From the IMG/VR virus record IMGVR_UViG_2695420456_000026: a stretch of 7,631 nucleotides of DNA; one strand, given 5' to 3'. The stretch is from a virus (lineage: Duplodnaviria > Heunggongvirae > Uroviricota > Caudoviricetes). The notes under the pieces were generated by a model. The model saw only the letters and a list, made by a program, of their open reading frames with translations, did no database searches and was not told where the DNA came from. Of the stretch, positions 1-7,631 are shown piece after piece. A program made the translations under genes and the position numbers. The first letter of the stretch is position 1, and every line of letters starts with the position of its first letter.

Positions 1-513
1 CTATGTCCTTGACGTCATAGCCGACTGGCCGATAAACCGGGTCGGCGAACTGCTCCCCTGGCGCGTAGCACTGCCGACTGAATAACACATCCCCGTCAAT
101 ACGGTTCTTGCTGCACGCTTACTTTTCTTCACGGTACAGATGCGGCGCATGGTGGATTCATCCGTCAGCATTCGCATGATTTCGGTGTTCAGTTCGGGGA
201 TAACGGTATAACCACCATCAGCGGGAACGCCTGTACTCAATGCGCGGGTTTCACCTGTCAGAATGTAGTGACGTAGTTCGGCGGGGTCAGTGGTCTGGCT
301 GTTTTTGCCTGGTTTACTGCGCTCTTCGTCAGCAACGGCCTCAAGGCGGGAGATGTCTTTATCGAGGGATTCAGCTTTAGCGCGTAATTCGTCAAATTTT
401 GCGCCCTCAGCATCGTTAAGGCTGCGGTTTTCTTTTTCCGCGTTCTCCAGCATGTCGCGCATCTGATTTTTAATGGCGGTTTTCTGCTGGCGTAATTCGA
501 TTATTCTCGGCAT
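1..513 (-). CDS. Capsid-like protein, about 170 aa. Residues 1-130 resemble the N-terminal part of HK97-family major capsid proteins (coiled-coil region followed by a ...LSTGVPADGGYTVIPELNTEIMRMLTDESTMRRI... block). The C-terminal 40 aa do not look capsid-like; possibly truncated or frameshifted.
   Basis: ATG at 513 (MPRIIELRQQ...) with AGGA about 8 nt upstream; the track ORF starts further up at a GTG (561). Stop TAG at 3..1. Family resemblance is from memory of HK97-type capsid N-termini, not a search. Confidence 0.45.
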   Translation of the reverse strand: MPRIIELRQQKTAIKNQMRDMLENAEKENRSLNDAEGAKFDELRAKAESLDKDISRLEAVADEERSKPGKNSQTTDPAELRHYILTGETRALSTGVPADGGYTVIPELNTEIMRMLTDESTMRRICTVKKSKRAARTVLTGMCYSVGSATRQGSSSPTRFIGQSAMTSRT

Positions 514-543
514 AAAAAAAGTCCTGAAGTTAAGTAAGGAACT

Positions 544-669
544 CCAGGACGCGGCAAACACTCAACCGTTTTTCATAAGGAAATCAGCAATCGCACCGAT
601 CGTTTTCCCGCCTGGTAATGAATATTGGCGGGCACATTAACAGGCGGGAAAGTGGCCCCAGCGTCCTGG
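544..669. promoter_or_regulatory. Nested inverted repeats in the intergenic region upstream of the capsid-like gene: CCAGGACGC (544-552) / GCGTCCTGG (661-669) enclosing TTTCCCGCCTG (604-614) / CAGGCGGGAAA (641-651).
   Basis: Repeats read directly from the sequence; function unknown (operator, structured leader or packaging-related site). Confidence 0.3.
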
Positions 670-800: not shown

Positions 801-1073
801 TTATCTGTCCTGGTAATTTCGCCATATTTCATCACCAGCACCATCCATACCCATTTCGGCATAAGTGCGATCGACCGCCTTTTTCAGGTCTCCGTAATTA
901 TCCGGCGGCTCCGGTGGCCTCTGTGCCTTCCTGGAACATTCCAGCCGTCGCATCGTGATGTGATGCCGTTCCTTGTCTGTCTCCACCAGTTGCATGACTT
1001 CACCCCATCGCGCCGACGCTCTCCGGTAAAAGCCTTTCGCCTCCAGTTCTTCCGCTATGCGGTCATGTACCAT
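801..1073 (-). CDS. Small regulator-like protein, 90 aa, possibly PerC-family (motif ...AEELEAKGFYRRASARWGEVM...RRLEC...).
   Basis: ATG at 1073 preceded by GGGGTGGGGA; the track ORF starts at a GTG (1082). Stop TAA 803..801. The PerC resemblance is a recollection of the KGLWRRAA-type motif and is unverified. Confidence 0.45.
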   Translation of the reverse strand: MVHDRIAEELEAKGFYRRASARWGEVMQLVETDKERHHITMRRLECSRKAQRPPEPPDNYGDLKKAVDRTYAEMGMDGAGDEIWRNYQDR

Positions 1074-1085
1074 CGTCCCCACCCC

Positions 1086-1496
1086 TCAGAACGGAATATC
1101 ATCACCGTAAGGGTCATCGCCTCCCGCTGGTGGCTGATTACCCTGTGTGCCTGTGGTCTTGCGTCGGCTCCCACCAGGACGTGCCGCACGGGCACTGATT
1201 ACGCTGTCTGCAATAACCTGATAACCCTGCCGCGTTTCCCCGTTCTGTCCGGTCCACTGGCTGACCTGCATCGTGCCGGATACGCTGGCAACGTCGCCTT
1301 TTTGATGTTTAGCCAGGAAGTCGGCCTGCTTACCAAATGCGATGACCGATAGCCATAACGTCGCCTGTCCATCCTGTGCCTGGCTGCATGGCAGCGATAC
1401 CGCCATACGCGCCAGCGTCATCGGTGTACCCTTGCTGGTCTGTTTTACCTGCGGGTCGTCCACCAGCCGCCCGTAAGCTGCAATTTGTGCTGTCAT
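1086..1496 (-). CDS. ssb: Single-stranded DNA-binding protein (SSB), 136 aa, OB-fold with acidic C-terminal tail ending DDIPF.
   Basis: C-terminus ...GGDDPYGDDIPF is the hallmark SSB tail; Gly/Pro/Gln-rich linker before it; SD GAGGTGG 4 nt upstream of the ATG at 1496. Confidence 0.85.
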   Translation of the reverse strand: MTAQIAAYGRLVDDPQVKQTSKGTPMTLARMAVSLPCSQAQDGQATLWLSVIAFGKQADFLAKHQKGDVASVSGTMQVSQWTGQNGETRQGYQVIADSVISARAARPGGSRRKTTGTQGNQPPAGGDDPYGDDIPF

Positions 1497-2059: not shown

Positions 2060-2068
2060 TTCTCGCAA

Positions 2069-2261
2069 CCTCTCACTTTTTCGCCTCACTTTTTCAAGCG
2101 TCTCACTTCGTCGCAGTTGGGATTTTCGGTTTTTCTATGTGTGTGTTTCATAAGTATTTTTTTACCCCTCACTTTTGAGGATGTATACAGGTCGAAAAGT
2201 GAGGGGGAGCGGGCTAATTTTGGCCCTCTTTCTATCCCCCTCGCTTTTGCTCCTCACTTTT
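2069..2261. repeat. Candidate replication origin: at least six direct copies of the iteron (C)CTCACTTTT (cores at about 2072, 2085, 2102, 2168, 2253, plus variant CTCGCTTTT at 2240), one inverted copy (AAAAGTGAGGGG at 2195-2206), and an AT-rich stretch (2120-2164).
   Basis: Repeats read directly from the sequence; CCCCTCACTTTT (2165-2176) and its inverted copy form a 12-bp inverted repeat with an 18-bp spacer; array begins at the stop codon of the helicase gene. Confidence 0.65.
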
Positions 2262-3660
2262 ATAGCGGCGCTACATCATCCCCATCGATACGAATAACCC
2301 CATCTTTTTCCAGCTTGTACAGCCAGCGCCGGAAGTTTTTCATTTCATACCCCAGCTTTTTCATGTCATCACGTAACATCTGGATCGTGCACTTGTCGCC
2401 GTTCTGTGTGCGTGAACGGATGCACCCCCATAGCGCGGTATGGTTTTCCGTCTTGTTCCCTGCCTCCTCGATGCGCTCCAGTTCAACAGGAGGGCGCGGA
2501 TCATCCACCACCACCAGCGACGTGATTAATTCACCGTCAGCGTCGGTAAAAAGCTCCACCACGCGTAAGTCATATGCGGCTTCTTTGAGTTCCTCCGCGT
2601 CCTTCATTTTGGTGCATGAGATAACCAGCGCTTCGCTTCCTGCGTCCTCCCTGCGTATCCGGTATTCAGCATCCAGCGAAGCACGAAATGCACTGGAACC
2701 GCGCGCGCCTTTCGTCTCATCCTTGCCGGAATGGTGAACCACCAGCACCGTGGCCCCTGTGCGTCGTTTCAGTTCGTCACAACCACGGATAAACGCCCCC
2801 ATATCACGGGAATCATTTTCATCATTCCCACCAAAGCAACGCGCCAGCGTATCCAGAATAATCATGCGTACAGGTTTACCCGTTTCCCGCTCCACCTGAC
2901 GGGCAGCGATAACCATTTCATCAACATCAAGCGGGGCAGCCGGAAAGATGGGGCGGTTTACCAGATACAGATTTTTCACCTGCTCATCGTGCACAACCTC
3001 CCAGGCTTTTACACGACGCGGAACACCTATACCGCCTTCACCAACCACATAGAGAACCGCACCATGTGCAACCCTGCGGCCTCCCCACTGGCGACCAGTG
3101 GCAACATGGCACGCCCACGATCCGGCAAGGAATGATTTATAGGACCCGCTAGCCCCGTATATGCTGCATAGCGATACCGCCGGAATAATCCCCTTAACCA
3201 CGTAATCCAGTTGCGTGTCGTATCCGGTAGATCCAACGCTCATCGGTAGCGTGGTTTTTCGCTGGTGGTTTTTTTCTTCCGCCGGCTCTTTCCCGCGCAC
3301 CCGTTCCAGGTATTCGCGCCAGTTCTCCCGCATATGGCTGTGCATCCCTTCGGGGTAATAATTCGCATCAGTTACGCCCGCCGCCGCCAGCTTGTGCGCA
3401 ATGGCATTAATATTTGATGGCCTGATGTGGCCTGCCTTGTACAGCCGGACACAATAGCGCCCCTCGTCGATGATTCTCAGGTCTGCCAGTTCATCCAGTT
3501 GATCATCAGCCAGCACAATGGGAGGCACATTATCGCCAGCCAGTCGCCCGTCCTGTTCCTGCCACTGTTTCGCATGTGCCCACGCATCACTACCCGCAAA
3601 AATGATGACTTCGGTCATCTTGTCGTAAGGCTGTTTTTTTAAGTTCGGTGCGCTTTTCAT
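2260..3660 (-). CDS. Replication protein, 466 aa: RepA-like / RecA-fold helicase (AAA_25-type) C-terminal domain with an N-terminal domain of uncertain identity (possibly Toprim-like).
   Basis: P-loop-like YGASGSYKS, VLYVVGEGG, Walker-B-like MIILDTLARCF, and LVVHHSGKDETKGARGSSAFRASLD in the same order as in RSF1010 RepA-type helicases; ATG at 3660 overlaps the upstream stop (ATGA). Confidence 0.8.
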   Translation of the reverse strand: MKSAPNLKKQPYDKMTEVIIFAGSDAWAHAKQWQEQDGRLAGDNVPPIVLADDQLDELADLRIIDEGRYCVRLYKAGHIRPSNINAIAHKLAAAGVTDANYYPEGMHSHMRENWREYLERVRGKEPAEEKNHQRKTTLPMSVGSTGYDTQLDYVVKGIIPAVSLCSIYGASGSYKSFLAGSWACHVATGRQWGGRRVAHGAVLYVVGEGGIGVPRRVKAWEVVHDEQVKNLYLVNRPIFPAAPLDVDEMVIAARQVERETGKPVRMIILDTLARCFGGNDENDSRDMGAFIRGCDELKRRTGATVLVVHHSGKDETKGARGSSAFRASLDAEYRIRREDAGSEALVISCTKMKDAEELKEAAYDLRVVELFTDADGELITSLVVVDDPRPPVELERIEEAGNKTENHTALWGCIRSRTQNGDKCTIQMLRDDMKKLGYEMKNFRRWLYKLEKDGVIRIDGDDVAPL

Positions 3661-3956
3661 TTCTTGCCCCTGAATCCGTTAACCATGGTTTTCAGCTTCT
3701 GGATGTTTGCCCGTGCCCTGGCGTTGCTGGTGGGCACGTTATGCGGCGCGGTCTGTACCAGAGAAAAATCACGCCGGAACTGATAAACAGGCATCACGCA
3801 ATCATATTCGTAACCTTCACGGCGGTAGGTTACGCGCCGTTCTTCCACGCCCTTAATCATTACCGTGCCGCCGTACTGGTCGCGGTAAATATCACCGCGC
3901 GTAAATTTAGGGTGAGTGTTGCCACTGGCAGTTAAGCCAGAATATTTAAGTTTCAT
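3657..3956 (-). CDS. Hypothetical protein, 99 aa, basic C-terminus (MKLKYSGLTASGNTHPKFTRGDIYRDQYGG...).
   Basis: ATG at 3956 with SD GGAGA about 9 nt upstream; stop overlaps the helicase start codon. Confidence 0.6.
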   Translation of the reverse strand: MKLKYSGLTASGNTHPKFTRGDIYRDQYGGTVMIKGVEERRVTYRREGYEYDCVMPVYQFRRDFSLVQTAPHNVPTSNARARANIQKLKTMVNGFRGKK

Positions 3957-3961
3957 TATTT

Positions 3962-4195
3962 TTATTCTCCGGTGTGCTGTTCTTTATATCTGTCGTGCAA
4001 TAGATCTATTTCTTGCAGTTCCATTATTACAGGCTCAAGAAGCGTTATTAATGCCGTGGCAATTCTTGATTTTTGTTTGTCGCGTTCATTGTCGCCAAGT
4101 GTTTCAAGCCATATGCGCAATATTTCCAGCATGTTTTCACTGTGAGAAAGTGCAAGAAATGCGCGGTCTATTGTTTGGTGGTAAATATCACGCAT
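3962..4195 (-). CDS. Hypothetical protein, 77 aa, predicted helical (MRDIYHQTIDRAFLALSHSENMLEILRIW...).
   Basis: ATG at 4195 with SD GAGGATG upstream; start overlaps the stop of the upstream gene by 8 nt (ATGCGTGA). Confidence 0.55.
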   Translation of the reverse strand: MRDIYHQTIDRAFLALSHSENMLEILRIWLETLGDNERDKQKSRIATALITLLEPVIMELQEIDLLHDRYKEQHTGE

Positions 4196-4652
4196 GGCTT
4201 ACATCCTCAGGAAATTTTCTTCTATAACGCGCCTCTGCCACATATTCCGCATAATCGGCGGCGATATTCAGTACATCAAGCCCCGTTGATTTATATTCTC
4301 TCGTGGAAAGTAAGAAAAAAGCCGCTCTAATAAGTTCTGGCATTGACGAAAGCGCATCAGCCGCATCATCAGGAACGCCGGAAAATTCCTGTTTCAGGGA
4401 ATTAAAACGATCATCACGCATAACCCCCCCATTTTCACAATCAGCAATCAGGATAGCTTTGGCCTCATTCAGCGCCGTATCAGCACTAAATTGCATGACA
4501 GCCAGTGAGTGAGGAACGAAAGCACCGGCATATTCTGTTTCGCTGGTGGCGTGCTTATGTGCCCTGTCCGCGATAACAGAAATATCAATCAGCGCGTGCA
4601 TCAGCGTTTTGATGGCTTCGGCGGCTGCGTCCGGTGTGGTTTTATTGTGCAT
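4188..4652 (-). CDS. Hypothetical protein, 154 aa (MHNKTTPDAAAEAIKTLMHALIDISVIADRAHKH...).
   Basis: ATG at 4652 with SD GGGGA 7 nt upstream; 11-nt overlap with the preceding gene (ATGCACAATAA). Confidence 0.6.
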   Translation of the reverse strand: MHNKTTPDAAAEAIKTLMHALIDISVIADRAHKHATSETEYAGAFVPHSLAVMQFSADTALNEAKAILIADCENGGVMRDDRFNSLKQEFSGVPDDAADALSSMPELIRAAFFLLSTREYKSTGLDVLNIAADYAEYVAEARYRRKFPEDVSHA

Positions 4653-4854
4653 AAAGCATCCCCTGAATATTCGTGTTAATCATTCCGGCACGTTTTGTGA
4701 TTTCCTGTAATGATTCCCTTGTGGCGACAATTGCTTCATCTGGTAAGTGGTAATTACACACCACGCGACCTTTATCCACATTGACCAGTAGCTGCCCTGT
4801 GAATTTCTCACGAAACTGAATGCGGTTAAGGTCAGTAAGTGACAGATTAATCAT
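4642..4854 (-). CDS. Hypothetical protein, about 70 aa (MINLSLTDLNRIQFREKFTGQLLVNVDKGRVVCNYHLPDEAIV...).
   Basis: Preferred start is the ATG at 4854 with SD GGAGG 6 nt upstream; the longer track start at 4896 has no such support. Confidence 0.55.
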   Translation of the reverse strand: MINLSLTDLNRIQFREKFTGQLLVNVDKGRVVCNYHLPDEAIVATRESLQEITKRAGMINTNIQGMLYAQ

Positions 4855-5044
4855 GGCGCACCTCCTGACGAATACGGGCGGCAAATACAGCAACACAACC
4901 GGACGGGCAACGGTTACGCGCTTCGCGTTCCGTCCAGGCGGTTACGTGGATGATTTGAGATTCTCCGGCACTCAGTGCCAGAAAACGCCACACAAAGGCC
5001 GTTTGTGTGTGTACAAGGTGTGGTATATGATTTACGGCAACCAT
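4847..5044 (-). CDS. Small Cys/His-containing protein, 65 aa (MVAVNHIPHLVHTQTAFVWRF...RNRCPSGCVAVFAARIRQEVRHD); candidate first gene of the operon.
   Basis: It is the 3' end of the 314-aa track ORF, but only this part has a strong SD (AGGAG, 5-nt spacer) before an ATG (5044); stop TAA overlaps the next start by 8 nt (ATGATTAA). Confidence 0.45.
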   Translation of the reverse strand: MVAVNHIPHLVHTQTAFVWRFLALSAGESQIIHVTAWTEREARNRCPSGCVAVFAARIRQEVRHD

Positions 5045-5106
5045 AACGGCTCCTAGTTTACGTTGTTGGTTAGACGCCCCGTATGTGTTCCCAGCACTGC
5101 GGGGCG

Positions 5107-5177
5107 TTGATTTTTGTGTAATGGCAAGTACAATGGTAATTACCATGTAGGTATAGCAATAAAGGGTAATTACCATG
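5107..5177 (+). promoter_or_regulatory. Candidate sigma70 promoter (TTGATT 5107-5112, 16-bp spacer, TACAAT 5129-5134) with two operator-like copies of the perfect palindrome GGTAATTACC (5135-5144 and 5165-5174; shared 12-mer GGTAATTACCAT).
   Basis: Palindromes are 30 bp centre-to-centre; the first overlaps the -10/start region, the second ends at the RHH start codon. The divergent operon must also initiate in this 5045-5175 interval. Confidence 0.55.
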
Positions 5178-5348
5178 TCAACACCATTAGAAAAACGTTC
5201 GCCTCCATACCAAATGCGATTACCGGAAGACTTCAGAGCGCAGCTAGAAGAAGCAGCTAAGGCCGATGGCGACACATCTTTAGCCACTTGGATTAAACGC
5301 GTTCTCCGCAAAGAATTACAGCAACGCGGCATAGAACCCAAAGGATAA
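5175..5348 (+). CDS. Arc/MetJ-type ribbon-helix-helix DNA-binding protein, 57 aa (MSTPLEKRSPPYQMRLPEDFRAQLEEAAKADGDTSLATWIKRVLRKELQQRGIEPKG).
   Basis: Absent from the ORF track (under 60 aa); read by hand. The xRLPxEL...A...G.S.N..I pattern is typical of the Arc family; the palindromic operators overlap its own promoter and start. Confidence 0.7.
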   Translation: MSTPLEKRSPPYQMRLPEDFRAQLEEAAKADGDTSLATWIKRVLRKELQQRGIEPKG

Positions 5349-5405
5349 AAACTATCAGCGCCGTGGTGTGAGGTATTACGGCGCATTGCTATGCAGGACA
5401 ACACA

Positions 5406-5579
5406 ATGACCGATAAAGAATTGACCAAAACATTATCACCGGCACGGAAAAGACGGCGCAGAAAGATAGAGCATGAATCAGAAAGATTCGCGCCATGTGC
5501 TTTTGCCCTTGAGCAATTCCTTAAAGAGTACAGGGAAACGCGCCCATTGCAGGTATGGCAACGAACTGAACCAGACTGA
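5406..5579 (+). CDS. Possible small basic protein, 57 aa (MTDKELTKTLSPARKRRRRKIEHESERFAPCAFALEQFLKEYRETRPLQVWQRTEPD).
   Basis: ATG at 5406 with AGGA about 8 nt upstream (track ORF starts at the in-frame ATG 5391); lies between the RHH gene and the terminator on the same strand. No family recognised. Confidence 0.35.
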   Translation: MTDKELTKTLSPARKRRRRKIEHESERFAPCAFALEQFLKEYRETRPLQVWQRTEPD

Positions 5580-5673
5580 TAGCATTGCCCACCAGCCTGA
5601 TAGCGGCTATCATCCCCGTGCTTATGTTTGGGATCATATACACATAAGGCGCAGCGGGTTATCTGTTCAGAAA

Positions 5674-5702
5674 GGCGGCTCCATTTCGGGGCCGCTTTTT
5701 TT
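5674..5702 (+). terminator. Rho-independent terminator: GGCGGCTCC-ATTTC-GGGGCCGC followed by seven T.
   Basis: 8-bp GC-rich stem (one G-U pair), 5-nt loop, T-run 5696-5702; closes the plus-strand RHH cassette. Weaker in the opposite direction (only TTT). Confidence 0.75.
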
Positions 5703-5848
5703 ATGCCTGAAAAACCCCAATTTTGTGGTTTTCCAGTCTCACCAGGGCGAACGAATCCCCGCCCACGTTCTGGCGTATATTCAATCTTCATGGTTATAGC
5801 TCTGTGTTCAGATGATTGATGTGTGGCGGCTGTGTGCCGCCAGCGTGA

Positions 5849-6037
5849 TTAATGAACTGCCTTGCAGCTATCCTTCCAGGCCAGAACCTCGGATAAAAAC
5901 CAGCCAACGGAACGACCGCCAAGTTTACGACGTGATGGGAATTGTCCGGCCTTTTCCAGGCGGTAGCGACACGTACGGCTAAGGCCGGTTAGTTTTTCGC
6001 ATTCTTTTTCACGTATAAACCGATCAGTGCTTAACAC
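5849..6037 (-). CDS. alpA: AlpA-family phage regulatory protein (MerR-like HTH; Xis/Vis-like), 62 aa.
   Basis: ...ECEKLTGLSRTCRYRLEKAGQFPSRRKLGGRSVGWFLSEVLAW is the typical AlpA HTH block; GTG start at 6037 with AGGGGG 5 nt upstream; located just downstream of int. Confidence 0.85.
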   Translation of the reverse strand: MLSTDRFIREKECEKLTGLSRTCRYRLEKAGQFPSRRKLGGRSVGWFLSEVLAWKDSCKAVH

Positions 6038-6401: not shown

Positions 6402-7631
6402 TTATTTTCTTCTGGCTACTGGTAGCGTGGTTACGTTTTCATGTGTTCCCGCCAGTATCCCTAACCGCTCCGTCCACATATCCAGCGCATTGCGTTTCGC
6501 ATCCAGATAACGGGAATGATTATAAACTCGCTGCATTCCTGGCATCTGGTGGCCTGTAAGCTGCTCCACGACATGCGGATCAACGCCTAAATCGTTCAGC
6601 ATGGTTGTAAAGGTGCGCCGGATGTCATGCAGTGACCAGTGAGGGTGATTAAGCCTCCTGTGCGCTAATCTTCCATACTGCGATACGCTGGCCTCCTGTT
6701 TCACTTCCCCCAGCAATAAGCCCGTGTGCCTGTTCTGCTCCACCAGCTGCGTGATGAACGGCAGTATTGCTTCCGGTATAGGCCGGAATATGGCTACCTT
6801 CGTTTTGCTGTGCTCCTTCGGAACGGTCCAGAGCATTTCGGTAAAATCCCACTCGCTGATCTCCGATAACCTCAGTTCTACCGTCCGGCATCCGAACACA
6901 ATCAGGAGGCGGATTAACGCGATGTAGTAGGGGGAGAATATTTTTTTGTCCAGTGCCTGCAATAATTCGCCCAGTTCTTTGGTGCTTAAGACACGCTCGC
7001 TTATATCCGGTTTTTTCCCAACGTCCGCCACACTCATATCATCAAGAACGTTGCTGATTGCATAGCGCCGCCTCCGGCAGAACTTAAGCGCCTGTTTGCA
7101 CGTCTGTAGCAAGAATCCGGCAGTAACAGGCGTTCGCTTTGCCACCTGGTCAAAACAGGCCAGCCAGTGCCGTAGCTCGCATTTATCCAGCGGCATAGCA
7201 CCAATGTGCTGTATTACGTGATTATTAAGGCGCTTTTTCAGGGCGGCATAATCCACGCGGTTTTCCTTTGCGTACGACTCAAGCCAGTAGGTGAGCGCAT
7301 CGCCAACCGTTACCGGCTTTAACGCTTCCTGTACGGTGTAATTAAGCTCATGACGTGGATTTTTCCCCTCTGCCAGCCATGCGCGACACTGGGCGGCTTT
7401 TTCCCTGGCTGATTTCAGGCTCAGATCAGGATAATTTCCCAGCTTAATGCGTTCCGGTGGTGCCCCCCTTCCCGTTCCGGCCCTGTAAGTGAAATACCAG
7501 GTTAAAAGGCCACTGGTTGAATGCCTGACGCTCAGGTTTCCACCGTCATTAAGAAAGGCTGTTTTTTGGGCGGGTGTGCCGTTGATTTTCCTCAGCTGTG
7601 TATCGCTCAGTTTGTTAAGTGCTCTGCTCAT
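6402..7631 (-). CDS. int: Tyrosine recombinase, P4-family phage integrase with N-terminal arm-binding domain, 409 aa.
   Basis: N-terminal ...GNLSVRHSTSGLLTWYFTYR... arm-binding block; catalytic-domain residues in ...HDIRRTF... and ...VYNHSRYLD... (candidate Tyr). ATG is the last three bases of the window, so the true start or att site may lie beyond it. Confidence 0.9.
   Translation of the reverse strand: MSRALNKLSDTQLRKINGTPAQKTAFLNDGGNLSVRHSTSGLLTWYFTYRAGTGRGAPPERIKLGNYPDLSLKSAREKAAQCRAWLAEGKNPRHELNYTVQEALKPVTVGDALTYWLESYAKENRVDYAALKKRLNNHVIQHIGAMPLDKCELRHWLACFDQVAKRTPVTAGFLLQTCKQALKFCRRRRYAISNVLDDMSVADVGKKPDISERVLSTKELGELLQALDKKIFSPYYIALIRLLIVFGCRTVELRLSEISEWDFTEMLWTVPKEHSKTKVAIFRPIPEAILPFITQLVEQNRHTGLLLGEVKQEASVSQYGRLAHRRLNHPHWSLHDIRRTFTTMLNDLGVDPHVVEQLTGHQMPGMQRVYNHSRYLDAKRNALDMWTERLGILAGTHENVTTLPVARRK

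What the first reader, a model, noticed from the sequence alone, without database searches (positions are those of the whole stretch)
2260..5044. Five small uncharacterised proteins translationally coupled ahead of the helicase
Six consecutive minus-strand genes have overlapping or abutting stop/start codons (8-nt overlap at 4847-4854, 11 nt at 4642-4652, 8 nt at 4188-4195, ATGA at 3657-3660), each with its own Shine-Dalgarno sequence. Only the last (helicase) has a recognisable function. Tight coupling implies fixed stoichiometry; in satellites this position commonly holds helper-interference or replication-accessory functions.
Basis: partly seen in the sequence, partly recalled or inferred. 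Interest (0 to 1): 0.6.

Follow-up and report, generated by a model that had tools for sequence, protein, structure and literature searches.

The report
Coupled early operon of an E. coli satellite
The six overlapping genes are real. They are the conserved early/replication operon of an E. coli phage satellite (a capsid-forming PICI), so the arrangement is largely known: one "unknown" is the published virulence regulator RgdR and another is an Icd-like protein.

Summary
Six minus-strand genes (65, 70, 154, 77, 99 and 466 aa) are joined by 8-, 11-, 8- and 4-nt overlaps and one 5-nt spacer, and each start has a Shine-Dalgarno-like site.

The claim that only the helicase is recognisable is wrong.
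- g5 (3657-3956) is a DUF4222 protein. It is 81% identical to annotated RgdR, the published activator of LEE1/type III secretion.
- g1 (4847-5044) is Icd-like (NF033153).

The island sits at the roxA/phoQ site and is an allelic variant of OI-51/CP-933C (EcCIEDL933). Its layout mirrors the left operon of satellite P4 (vis, eta/kil, epsilon, orf151, cnr, alpha), including 8-nt overlaps.

In 86 related loci:
- RgdR overlaps the replicase start by ATGA in 84/84 cases, whichever of three main replicase types follows (one other type occurred once).
- g4 precedes RgdR by the same 5-nt spacer in 82/84.
- g2 is sporadic.
- g3 is two small modules fused by a hypervariable poly-G tract.

Alleles reassort freely. 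That argues against a fixed-stoichiometry replication complex and favours exchangeable host/helper take-over cassettes expressed as one unit. The functions of g2-g4 remain unknown.

Verdict: real, conserved, mostly already described; moderate-to-low novelty.

The parts
4847..5044 (-). g1, 65-aa Icd-like protein; first cistron of the coupled chain
   Evidence: NCBIfam NF033153 phage_ICD_like E 5.2e-18, 64.8 bits against a cutoff of 25. It matches phrog_1743, the same PHROG that the C-terminal part of the P4 cI/eta ORF matches. PGAP names it 'host cell division inhibitor Icd-like protein'. An AGGAG sits 5 nt before the ATG.
4642..4854 (-). g2, 70-aa protein of unknown function; a sporadic cassette
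   Evidence: phrog_340 E 1e-23. It is present as a stand-alone 70-aa gene in 8 of 86 related loci. It is 64% identical to the N-terminal part of a 121-aa gene that, in other loci, sits between the two g3 modules. No hit in Pfam, NCBIfam, PADLOC, PDB or the phage genomes.
4188..4652 (-). g3, 154-aa acidic all-alpha protein; a fusion of an N module (4422-4652) and a C module (4188-4421, starting at internal Met78)
   Evidence: phrog_2512 matches the full length, phrog_5146 the N half and phrog_24341 the C half. Only 63 relatives were found among 1.84 billion representative proteins, and most are stand-alone N or C modules of 70-85 aa. The AF2 model is all-helical with mean pLDDT 60. pN/pS is 0.21.
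4424..4430 (-). Poly-G tract (G7) that sets whether g3 is one fused gene or two coupled genes
   Evidence: Run lengths of 7/8/9/10/11 occur in 18/16/12/2/1 related loci. In 6 of 9 groups of loci with identical 300-nt flanks, the run length differs within the group. G8 gives ...CENGGGYA* overlapping ATGCGTGA. Finished genome NZ_CP077473 is annotated with 79 + 77 aa genes here.
3962..4195 (-). g4, 77-aa acidic helical protein; in the chain directly upstream of RgdR in 83 of the 86 loci
   Evidence: phrog_2196 E 4e-42. In 83 of 86 loci a member of this family precedes RgdR; the spacer string TAAAAATAATG is identical in 82/84 loci that have any gene called upstream. The family ends in ...TGE* (or ...IGE* in one divergent type), which encodes the GGAG of the RgdR Shine-Dalgarno site. 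pN/pS 0.39; pI 5.1.
3657..3956 (-). g5, RgdR orthologue (DUF4222), 99 aa, pI 10.2
   Evidence: PF13973 E 1.6e-24. 81% identical to PGAP-annotated rgdR WP_000770148.1. It keeps R20-G21-D22 and K35, residues studied in PMC3378721. The AF2 core (residues 20-68, pLDDT about 84-90) is a five-strand SH3/Tudor/KOW-like barrel followed by a basic C-terminal helix. It overlaps the replicase start by ATGA in 84/84 loci.
2260..3660 (-). RepA-family replicative helicase (the PICI replicase)
   Evidence: PF13481 AAA_25 E 2.4e-43. phrog_2850 matches the full length, and other PHROG hits are annotated primase/helicase. PGAP names it 'helicase RepA family protein'.
2064..2261 (.). Probable replication origin: iterons CCTCACTTTT in both orientations, starting at the 3' end of the helicase gene (2260) and running downstream
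   Evidence: the repeat finder found 4 direct copies plus inverted copies. This is the position reported for PICI origins, after pri-rep (PMC6092414). The function is inferred.
5045..5174 (.). Leader and regulatory region upstream of g1, with two copies of the palindrome GGTAATTACC (5135-5144 and 5165-5174) and a GC hairpin (5074-5107)
   Evidence: A promoter-like site on the + strand at 5107-5134 points toward the Arc-like gene. No consensus promoter for the minus-strand operon was found.
5175..5348 (+). Divergent 57-aa Arc/YlcI-YnfO-like ribbon-helix-helix protein; candidate repressor of the operon
   Evidence: phrog_228 'Arc-like repressor' E 1.5e-6; NF041551 E 1.4e-3, below its cutoff. Between alleles there are 25 variable third-position columns against 1 first- and 0 second-position; pN/pS is 0.012.
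5849..6037 (-). AlpA-family regulator, upstream in the same orientation
   Evidence: 45% identical to P4 Orf88/Vis. PGAP calls it a helix-turn-helix regulator. AlpA is the helper-induced activator of Gram-negative PICIs and is required for EcCIEDL933 induction (PMC6092414; bioRxiv 10.1101/2022.09.08.507074).

Best explanation
The six genes are the early/replication operon of a capsid-forming phage-inducible chromosomal island of E. coli. The island is integrated at the roxA/phoQ site and is an allelic variant of OI-51/CP-933C (EcCIEDL933).

The operon is built like the left operon of satellite P4. A first cistron of the Icd/Kil type (g1) is followed by a string of small cassette genes and then the replicase with its iteron origin.

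- g5 is RgdR, a small basic protein with a Tudor/KOW-like barrel that is known to alter host transcription.
- g4 is the acidic gene directly upstream of it in 83 of 86 loci.
- g3 is two small helical modules fused by a slippery poly-G tract.
- g2 is an optional cassette.

Shown here: the identity of g1 and g5, the synteny, and the conservation of the stereotyped stop/start junctions.

Inferred:
- After the helper phage switches on AlpA, one transcript is made.
- Ribosomes that enter at g1 pass from cistron to cistron by termination-reinitiation, so the take-over proteins and the replicase appear together.
- Uninterrupted translation protects the long mRNA from premature termination, as described for eta/kil in P4.
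- The small proteins act on the host or the helper (division arrest by Icd-like, transcription reprogramming by RgdR). They are not dedicated partners of one replicase.
For: Junctions and SD sites.

Island identity:
- Finished genomes show int, alpA, the same operon, SSB, PerC, HK97 capsid, protease, portal, connectors, HNH and TerS/TerL between roxA and phoQ.
- This is the site described for OI-51 (PMC3378721) and the gene set of cf-PICIs.

Gene identities:
- g1 is NF033153.
- g5 is PF13973 and 81% identical to annotated rgdR.
- RgdR literature.

Conservation:
- The cassette region matches 1765 of 5426 complete E. coli genomes.
- The 86-locus panel gives ATGA 84/84 and a +5 spacer 82/84.
- pN/pS is 0.2-0.4.

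P4 parallel:
- The gene order matches, and P4 has 8-nt overlaps GTGCGTAA and ATGTTTGA.
- The C-terminal part of the P4 eta/cI ORF and g1 share phrog_1743.
- C4 immunity RNA lies next to icd-like genes in P4 and in 14 related loci.
- The role of eta/kil translation in preventing termination is described in PMC10111431.

Against a replicase-specific role: identical RgdR alleles precede RepA, primase and DUF927 replicases.

Satellite specificity: there are no tblastn hits for g2-g5 in 50,697 phage genomes.
Against: - No expression or translation data exist for this island.
- Every cistron has its own SD-like site, so independent initiation could suffice and coupling may be partial.
- No convincing sigma-70 promoter for the operon was found.
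- The window lacks the C4 RNA that controls the equivalent operons of P1 and P4. It has a divergent Arc-like gene instead, so the control logic may differ.
- g2, g3 and g4 have no detectable homology to any protein of known function.
- The link from g1 to P4 Kil/P1 Icd rests on profile matches only. Pairwise BLAST against the P4 ORF gives E 0.58.
- The published phenotypes of RgdR were obtained by deletion and plasmid expression in EHEC, not in a PICI life-cycle context.
Confidence: 0.75

Rival explanations
1. The five small proteins form a fixed-stoichiometry replication-initiation accessory complex for the helicase: loader, origin-binding partner or copy-number regulator.
For: They lie directly upstream of the replicase, and g5 overlaps it by ATGA in 84/84 loci. 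In P4, orf106 occupies the slot directly before alpha; from memory, orf106 is cnr, whose product regulates alpha. RgdR binds DNA non-specifically (PMC3378721). An iteron origin lies just downstream.
Against: The same RgdR alleles are combined with three different replicase families. Divergent g4 types pair with RgdR alleles that are 81-96% identical to the window's. g2 is usually absent and g3 is fused, split or interrupted. RgdR is DUF4222 whereas P4 orf106 is DUF5375, so they are unrelated families. A Klebsiella cf-PICI has the same layout but no DUF4222 gene.
Confidence: 0.15
2. One or more of g2-g4 is a helper-directed factor, such as an anti-repressor or inducer like P4 epsilon, or an interference protein.
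For: The position is syntenic with P4 epsilon (Pfam 'Derepression' PF25738) and orf151, with the same 8-nt overlaps. These genes are highly mosaic and satellite-specific, as expected for genes in an arms race. hhalign of g3 against epsilon gives P = 0.0023 over 24 columns.
Against: The hhalign probability is only 12%. g3 gave no Pfam hit at E up to 0.1, so it does not match PF25738 at that threshold. No PADLOC hit. cf-PICIs are reported not to reduce helper transfer when their packaging genes are mutated. Induction is attributed to AlpA, not to a derepressor.
Confidence: 0.2
3. RgdR, and perhaps its neighbours, is cargo that benefits the bacterial host as a virulence or motility regulator. Its place in the operon is incidental.
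For: Deleting OI-51 or ecs1581 lowers type III secretion, adherence and sheep colonisation (PMC3378721). PICI papers list RgdR among accessory or virulence genes (PMC6092414).
Against: RgdR homologues occur in LEE-negative commensal and uropathogenic strains. The gene is present in every analysed E. coli PICI. It is locked to the replicase start by ATGA in 84/84 loci, which places its synthesis in the induced cycle. Typical PICI cargo sits elsewhere in the island.
Confidence: 0.2
4. Some of the small ORFs are not genes but chance ORFs or annotation artefacts.
For: They are short and most lack any functional annotation. g2 shows no sequence variation in the panel, so no selection test was possible.
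Against: pN/pS is 0.2-0.4, with third-position excess for g3 and g5 and a weaker excess for g4. Homologues occur at 40-90% amino-acid identity. All match PHROG families. Junction strings and SD sites are conserved. g2 has a 64% identical relative inside a longer gene.
Confidence: 0.03

Closest known systems
Early operon of OI-51 / CP-933C = cf-PICI EcCIEDL933, and of EcCICFT073 (E. coli PICIs), which contains rgdR
   Same: Same integration site (roxA/phoQ). The integrase is 100% identical and AlpA 98% identical to a CP-933C-like island in which PGAP annotates rgdR. The gene order is the same: Icd-like, small coupled ORFs, g4-family gene, RgdR, replicase, SSB, PerC, HK97 capsid module.
   Different: The replicase here is a 466-aa RepA-family helicase rather than the 710-aa DUF927 protein. 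The middle cassettes differ: g2 and g3 here against 61- and 63-aa genes there (phrog_3672 and phrog_1478). The RgdR allele is 81% identical. The regulatory module upstream of icd is of the Arc-like type here.
Left operon of satellite phage P4 (vis/orf88, eta-kil with CI RNA, epsilon, orf151, cnr/orf106, alpha)
   Same: An AlpA/Vis homologue lies upstream (45% identity). An Icd/Kil-type ORF sits at the head (shared phrog_1743). Small ORFs are joined by 8-nt stop/start overlaps. The replicase comes last. The primase-type replicases of sister islands are about 50% identical to alpha.
   Different: No C4/CI RNA or isrK/seqA element is present in the window, although both are found in P4 and in some sister loci. 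g2-g5 show no significant similarity to epsilon, orf151 or cnr: BLAST E values of 0.13 or worse and hhalign probabilities of about 12%. The Pfam families differ.
immI operon of phage P1 (c4 antisense RNA, icd, ant1/ant2)
   Same: An Icd-like first cistron is followed by genes that overlap it. In P1, Icd arrests cell division and c4, icd and ant form one operon in which icd contributes to the control of ant (PMC8198154). That ant translation is coupled to icd translation is from my own recollection of Riedel et al. 1993; that paper could not be read.
   Different: No c4 RNA here. The downstream genes are not Ant homologues. g1 matches only the 48-residue Icd-like domain model, and no direct comparison with P1 Icd was made.

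Membership tests
Gram-negative PICI, capsid-forming subtype (cf-PICI) | int, alpA and a pri/rep-type replicase in one orientation, followed by an iteron origin | tested here: met
   int 6402-7631, AlpA-like 5849-6037, helicase 2260-3660. Iterons CCTCACTTTT at 2064-2261.
Gram-negative PICI, capsid-forming subtype (cf-PICI) | Own HK97 capsid, protease, portal, connectors and TerS/TerL, no tail or lysis genes, size about 15 kb | tested here: met
   The window holds only the capsid gene's 5' end (1-561). The complete islands matching the window at 98% (93% covered, H2) and 95% (98% covered, H1) carry the full set between phoQ and roxA, about 14 kb.
Gram-negative PICI, capsid-forming subtype (cf-PICI) | Induction by a helper phage through AlpA, and transfer using helper tails | not testable with these tools
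   Shown for EcCIEDL933 in bioRxiv 10.1101/2022.09.08.507074, not for this allele.
Icd-like proteins (NCBIfam NF033153) | Match to the family model above its curated cutoff | tested here: met
   64.8 bits against a cutoff of 25, E 5.2e-18, residues 17-60.
Icd-like proteins (NCBIfam NF033153) | Preceded by a C4/CI-type antisense RNA, as in P1 and P4 | tested here: not met
   No Rfam match in the window at E up to 1. The positive controls P4, L005 and L023 were detected, and 14 of 86 sister loci have a C4-like RNA.
Icd-like proteins (NCBIfam NF033153) | Inhibits host cell division | not testable with these tools
   Known for P1 Icd (PMC8198154).
RgdR / DUF4222 | Pfam PF13973 domain; 99 aa; basic (published pI 10.09) | tested here: met
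   E 1.6e-24, 85.7 bits against a cutoff of 27. 99 aa, pI 10.16.
RgdR / DUF4222 | More than 77% identity to ECs1581 over the full length (the orthologue criterion of PMC3378721), with RGD at 20-22 and K35 | tested here: met
   81% identical over 99 aa to PGAP-annotated rgdR in a CP-933C-like island. R20, G21, D22 and K35 are present. R20 varies among orthologues, whereas G21 and D22 are invariant.
RgdR / DUF4222 | Activates LEE1/type III secretion and represses motility | not testable with these tools
   Allele-dependent in PMC3378721; the ED1a variant is inactive.
P4 left-operon accessory proteins (epsilon, orf151, cnr) | Sequence or profile homology of g2-g5 to these proteins | tested here: inconclusive
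   BLAST E values of 0.13 or worse. hhalign of RgdR against orf151 residues 6-52 gives P 0.0023 and probability 12.6%. hhalign of g3 against epsilon gives P 0.0023 and probability 12.4%. The Pfam families differ.
Replication-initiation accessory factors specific to one replicase | Co-variation or co-inheritance with the replicase type | tested here: not met
   Single RgdR alleles are found with RepA, primase and DUF927 replicases. Identity levels of neighbouring genes are uncorrelated.

The most novel reading that the evidence does not exclude
RgdR (g5) may be an RNA-polymerase-binding factor of the CarD or UvrD-Tudor kind: a Tudor/KOW-like barrel that docks on RNA polymerase, plus a basic helix that touches DNA non-specifically. 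E. coli PICIs would make it together with their replicase to reprogram host transcription during induction.

If so, its published effects on LEE1, motility and curli would be side effects of a satellite take-over function. The g4 product, the acidic neighbour found upstream in 83 of 86 loci, could be its modulator.

Probability: 0.15. Interest if true: 0.6.

Novelty: new member of a known kind. Interest (0 to 1): 0.35.

Why it matters
Parts of this cassette occur in about a third of complete E. coli genomes (1765 of 5426), including O157:H7 and O111 strains. One of its genes already links a phage satellite to virulence regulation.

RgdR starts the replicase gene's overlap in every related island examined, it is satellite-specific, and the surrounding small genes behave as exchangeable cassettes. 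Together these points reframe RgdR from 'virulence cargo' to a probable life-cycle gene. They also identify g4, the two g3 modules and g2 as the untested core of PICI early functions.

Practical consequences:
- Annotation of these islands should name RgdR and Icd-like.
- The 154-aa gene should be treated as two modules.
- Experiments on PICI induction should include this operon.

Tried and rejected
- **C4/CI immunity RNA upstream of g1.** Rfam found nothing in the window at E up to 1. The controls worked.
- **Structured leader hiding the g1 SD.** The fold of 5025-5145 is not exceptional (z -1.26) and the SD is not stably paired.
- **The 314-aa ORF (4847-5791), in frame with g1, as the true first gene, like P4 eta.** Its third codon positions coincide with those of the + strand Arc-like and 62-aa genes. 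The Arc-like frame shows pN/pS 0.012 against 0.149 for the antisense frame. Its N-terminal 249 aa match no PHROG. It is most likely an antisense shadow, but this is not fully excluded, because a Klebsiella relative has a 324-aa annotated ORF ending in the Icd-like domain.
- **Sequence search of solved structures for g1-g5.** Nothing was found.
- **PADLOC defence models.** No hits.
- **tblastn against 50,697 phage genomes.** No hit for g2-g5. g1 hit only a Klebsiella cf-PICI-like element that was deposited as a phage.
- **Scan of species-representative genomes with an RgdR alignment.** Only Shigella and E. albertii loci were found.
- **Homology of g3 and g5 to P4 epsilon and orf151.** Too weak to use.
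- **AF2 model of g3.** Mean pLDDT 60, so no fold search was run on it.
- **BFVD fold search for RgdR.** Only uncharacterised small barrels and DUF1653 proteins were returned.
- **Riedel et al. 1993 on P1 icd.** The paper could not be read.

Full report

| Gene | Coordinates | Length |
|---|---|---|
| g1 | 5044-4847 | 65 aa |
| g2 | 4854-4642 | 70 aa |
| g3 | 4652-4188 | 154 aa |
| g4 | 4195-3962 | 77 aa |
| g5 | 3956-3657 | 99 aa |
| helicase | 3660-2260 | 466 aa |

Reading the sequence and a script confirm the junctions:
- ATGATTAA at 4847-4854;
- ATGCACAATAA at 4642-4652;
- ATGCGTGA at 4188-4195;
- a 5-nt spacer between g4 and g5;
- ATGA at 3657-3660.

Every start is ATG and has an anti-SD duplex of -5.7 to -13.5 kcal/mol upstream. 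Only 26% of all ATGs in the window reach -5 kcal/mol. PGAP annotates the same coding sequences in finished genomes.

**What the element is.** The window matches E. coli chromosomes at 95-99% identity. In strains FORC_042 and JNE132847 the complete element lies between roxA and phoQ. It reads:
- integrase, AlpA-type regulator, the operon in question;
- two small genes, SSB, a PerC-family regulator;
- HK97 capsid, protease, portal, closure and connector proteins, HNH, TerS and TerL.

That gene set and size define capsid-forming PICIs (bioRxiv 10.1101/2022.09.08.507074). The site is the one described for O-island 51/CP-933C (PMC3378721). A CP-933C-like island (L003) has a 100% identical integrase and a 98% identical AlpA, but a DUF927 replicase and other middle genes. 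The window is therefore an allelic variant of the OI-51/EcCIEDL933 family. Iterons CCTCACTTTT at 2064-2261, starting at the 3' end of the helicase gene and running downstream, fit a PICI origin (PMC6092414).

**The five small proteins.**
- **g1** matches the NCBIfam Icd-like domain: 64.8 bits against a cutoff of 25.
- **g5** is DUF4222 (E 1.6e-24) and 81% identical over all 99 residues to a gene PGAP annotates as rgdR.
- **RgdR** (ECs1581) is 99 aa with pI 10.
  - It activates LEE1 and type III secretion and represses motility.
  - It binds DNA without specificity, and orthologues above 77% identity occur in many pathotypes (PMC3378721).
  - It is said to be encoded by all analysed E. coli PICIs (PMC6092414).
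  - A 2024 review still lists its mechanism as unknown (PMC10877973).
  - The window allele keeps R20-G21-D22 and K35. Across orthologues R20 varies, while G21 and D22 are invariant.
- **g2, g3 and g4** match PHROG families of unknown function. They match nothing in Pfam, NCBIfam, PADLOC or the sequences of solved structures.
- **Phage genomes.** None of g2-g5 has a tblastn hit in 50,697 phage genomes. g1 hits only vB_KppS-Ant, which is itself cf-PICI-like.

**Conservation and modularity.** The 1.5-kb cassette region matches 1765 of 5426 complete E. coli genomes. Under these matches PGAP shows 'Icd-like ... hypothetical x1-5 ... DUF4222' in front of RepA-helicase, primase or DUF927 genes. I assembled 86 loci and walked the gene chains.
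- RgdR overlaps the replicase start by ATGA in 84/84 loci.
- A g4-family gene precedes RgdR in 83 of 86 loci; the spacer string TAAAAATAATG is identical in 82/84. The family ends in ...TGE* (or ...IGE* in one divergent type), which encodes the GGAG of the next SD.
- ATGCGTGA and ATG(C/T)(A/G)CAATAA recur as cassette boundaries.
- Identity levels of adjacent genes are uncorrelated.
- Single RgdR alleles are found with all three main replicase families.
- pN/pS is 0.21 for g3, 0.39 for g4, 0.30 for g5 and 0.17 for the helicase.
- g2 is present in 8 loci. It is 64% identical to the N-terminal part of a 121-aa gene found elsewhere in the chain.

**g3 is a fusion.**
- PHROGs split it into halves.
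- A profile search of 1.84 billion representative proteins found only 63 relatives, mostly stand-alone proteins matching residues 1-77 or 78-154.
- The halves meet at a G7 tract (4424-4430) followed by TT and an in-frame ATG (Met78).
- In related loci the run is 7, 8, 9, 10 or 11 G in 18, 16, 12, 2 and 1 cases.
- G8 and G11 give an N-module ending ...GGGYA* whose TGA overlaps ATGCGTGA, the start of the C-module.
- In 6 of 9 groups of loci with identical 300-nt flanks, run length differs within the group.
- The finished O111:H8 strain 8B genome is 99.8% identical here and is annotated with 79- and 77-aa genes overlapping by 8 nt.
- Some loci have the 121-aa gene inserted between the two modules.

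**Comparison with P4 and P1.** The P4 left operon reads, in order:
1. orf88/vis;
2. the cI/eta ORF;
3. epsilon, joined by an 8-nt overlap;
4. orf151, joined by an 8-nt overlap;
5. orf106;
6. alpha.

The P4 overlaps are GTGCGTAA and ATGTTTGA. The similarities and their limits are:
- The window's AlpA is 45% identical to Vis, and the primase-type replicases of sister islands are about 50% identical to alpha.
- The C-terminal part of the P4 ORF and g1 hit the same PHROG, but pairwise BLAST is not significant.
- Epsilon is Pfam 'Derepression' and orf106 is DUF5375. g2-g5 show only weak similarity to them, with hhalign probabilities of about 12%.
- Rfam finds C4 RNA in P4 and in some sister loci next to icd-like genes but not in the window.
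- In P1, c4, icd and ant form one operon and Icd arrests division (PMC8198154). That ant translation depends on icd translation is from my memory of Riedel et al. 1993, which could not be read.

**Structure.**
- The AF2 model of g5 has mean pLDDT 71, with a core (residues 20-68) at about 84-90. It is a five-strand barrel followed by a C-terminal helix.
- This fold is too common for a functional call. BFVD returned only uncharacterised barrels.
- The g3 model is all-helical with mean pLDDT 60 and was not searched.

**Upstream control.** Between alpA and g1 the + strand carries two small genes: a 57-aa Arc/YlcI-like gene (5175-5348) and a 62-aa gene (5391-5579, phrog_21027). Alleles of the Arc-like gene differ at 25 third-position columns, 1 first-position column and 0 second-position columns (pN/pS 0.012), so it is a real gene. 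Two GGTAATTACC palindromes lie between it and g1. The 314-aa minus-strand ORF in frame with g1 shares third codon positions with both + strand genes and is probably their shadow. In sister loci this regulatory module is replaced by C4-RNA modules or other variants.

**Interpretation.**

*Shown:*
- The operon, its junctions and its conservation.
- The identity of g1 and g5.
- The cf-PICI context.
- The P4-like layout.
- The cassette behaviour.

*Inferred:*
- A single helper/AlpA-dependent transcript.
- Termination-reinitiation along the chain.
- Protection of the mRNA from polarity.
- Host/helper take-over roles for the small proteins.

A helper-directed role for g2-g4 remains possible.

The finding is real. 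It is a new allele of a known kind of operon, with two of the five proteins already named.

Noticed in passing
window 4424-4430 (poly-G, minus strand) inside g3: A hypervariable homopolymer decides whether g3 is one 154-aa protein or two coupled proteins of about 77 aa. Runs of 7-11 G occur among near-identical loci. This could be phase variation, or both products could be made from the internal Met78 with the G-run acting as its SD.
   Followed up: yes
window 5175-5348 (+) and 5391-5579 (+); palindromes at 5135-5144 and 5165-5174: A divergent Arc/YlcI-like ribbon-helix-helix gene (pN/pS 0.012) and a 62-aa basic gene (phrog_21027) lie between alpA and the operon. Two GGTAATTACC operator-like palindromes and a + strand promoter-like site (5107-5134) accompany them. 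This suggests a protein repressor switch that PICI models with AlpA alone do not include.
   Followed up: partly
window 4847-5791 (-): A 314-aa ORF is open in frame with g1 and antisense to the two + strand genes, with coinciding third codon positions. PGAP calls it 'hypothetical' or 'Icd-like pseudogene' in relatives. It is probably a shadow ORF, but it recalls the nested eta/kil genes of P4 and a 324-aa ORF ending in an Icd-like domain in L087.
   Followed up: partly
L023:2962-3050, L005:6454-6541, and 12 other related loci: C4/CI-type antisense RNA genes sit beside icd-like genes in some sister islands, sometimes between two icd-like copies. An isrK/seqA-like element was found in P4 and in L005. 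The window has none, so the immunity module of these islands is exchangeable.
   Followed up: partly
window 5074-5107: An 8-bp GC hairpin (ACGCCCCG...CGGGGCGT) is followed on the + strand by TGATTTTTG. It is terminator-like for transcripts running antisense to g1, but not for the operon strand. Its purpose is unknown.
   Followed up: no
window 2064-2261: Iterons CCTCACTTTT, at least six copies in both orientations, begin at the 3' end of the helicase gene and run downstream. This is the probable origin of replication.
   Followed up: partly
window 801-1082 (-), 1086-1496 (-), 1-561 (-): A PerC-family regulator (another LEE-regulator family), an SSB and the 5' end of an HK97-type major capsid gene follow the operon. 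Two further small genes (93 aa, phrog_1231, and 101 aa, phrog_27268) overlap each other by ATGA.
   Followed up: no
L087 (LR881103, 'Escherichia phage vB_KppS-Ant'): This 16.5-kb record, deposited as a phage, has the layout of a capsid-forming PICI. It reads int, AlpA, a long ORF ending in an Icd-like domain, two overlapping small genes, primase, capsid module and terminase, and also carries a tape-measure-like gene. It has no DUF4222 gene.
   Followed up: partly
related loci L001-L085, cassette boundaries: The same short overlap strings (ATGCGTGA, ATGTGCAATAA/ATGCACAATAA, ATGCATAA) bound different cassettes, and P4 uses GTGCGTAA and ATGTTTGA. As a result the C-terminal residues of unrelated proteins are alike (...HA*, ...HVQ*/...YAQ*). 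These boundaries may be where cassettes are exchanged.
   Followed up: partly
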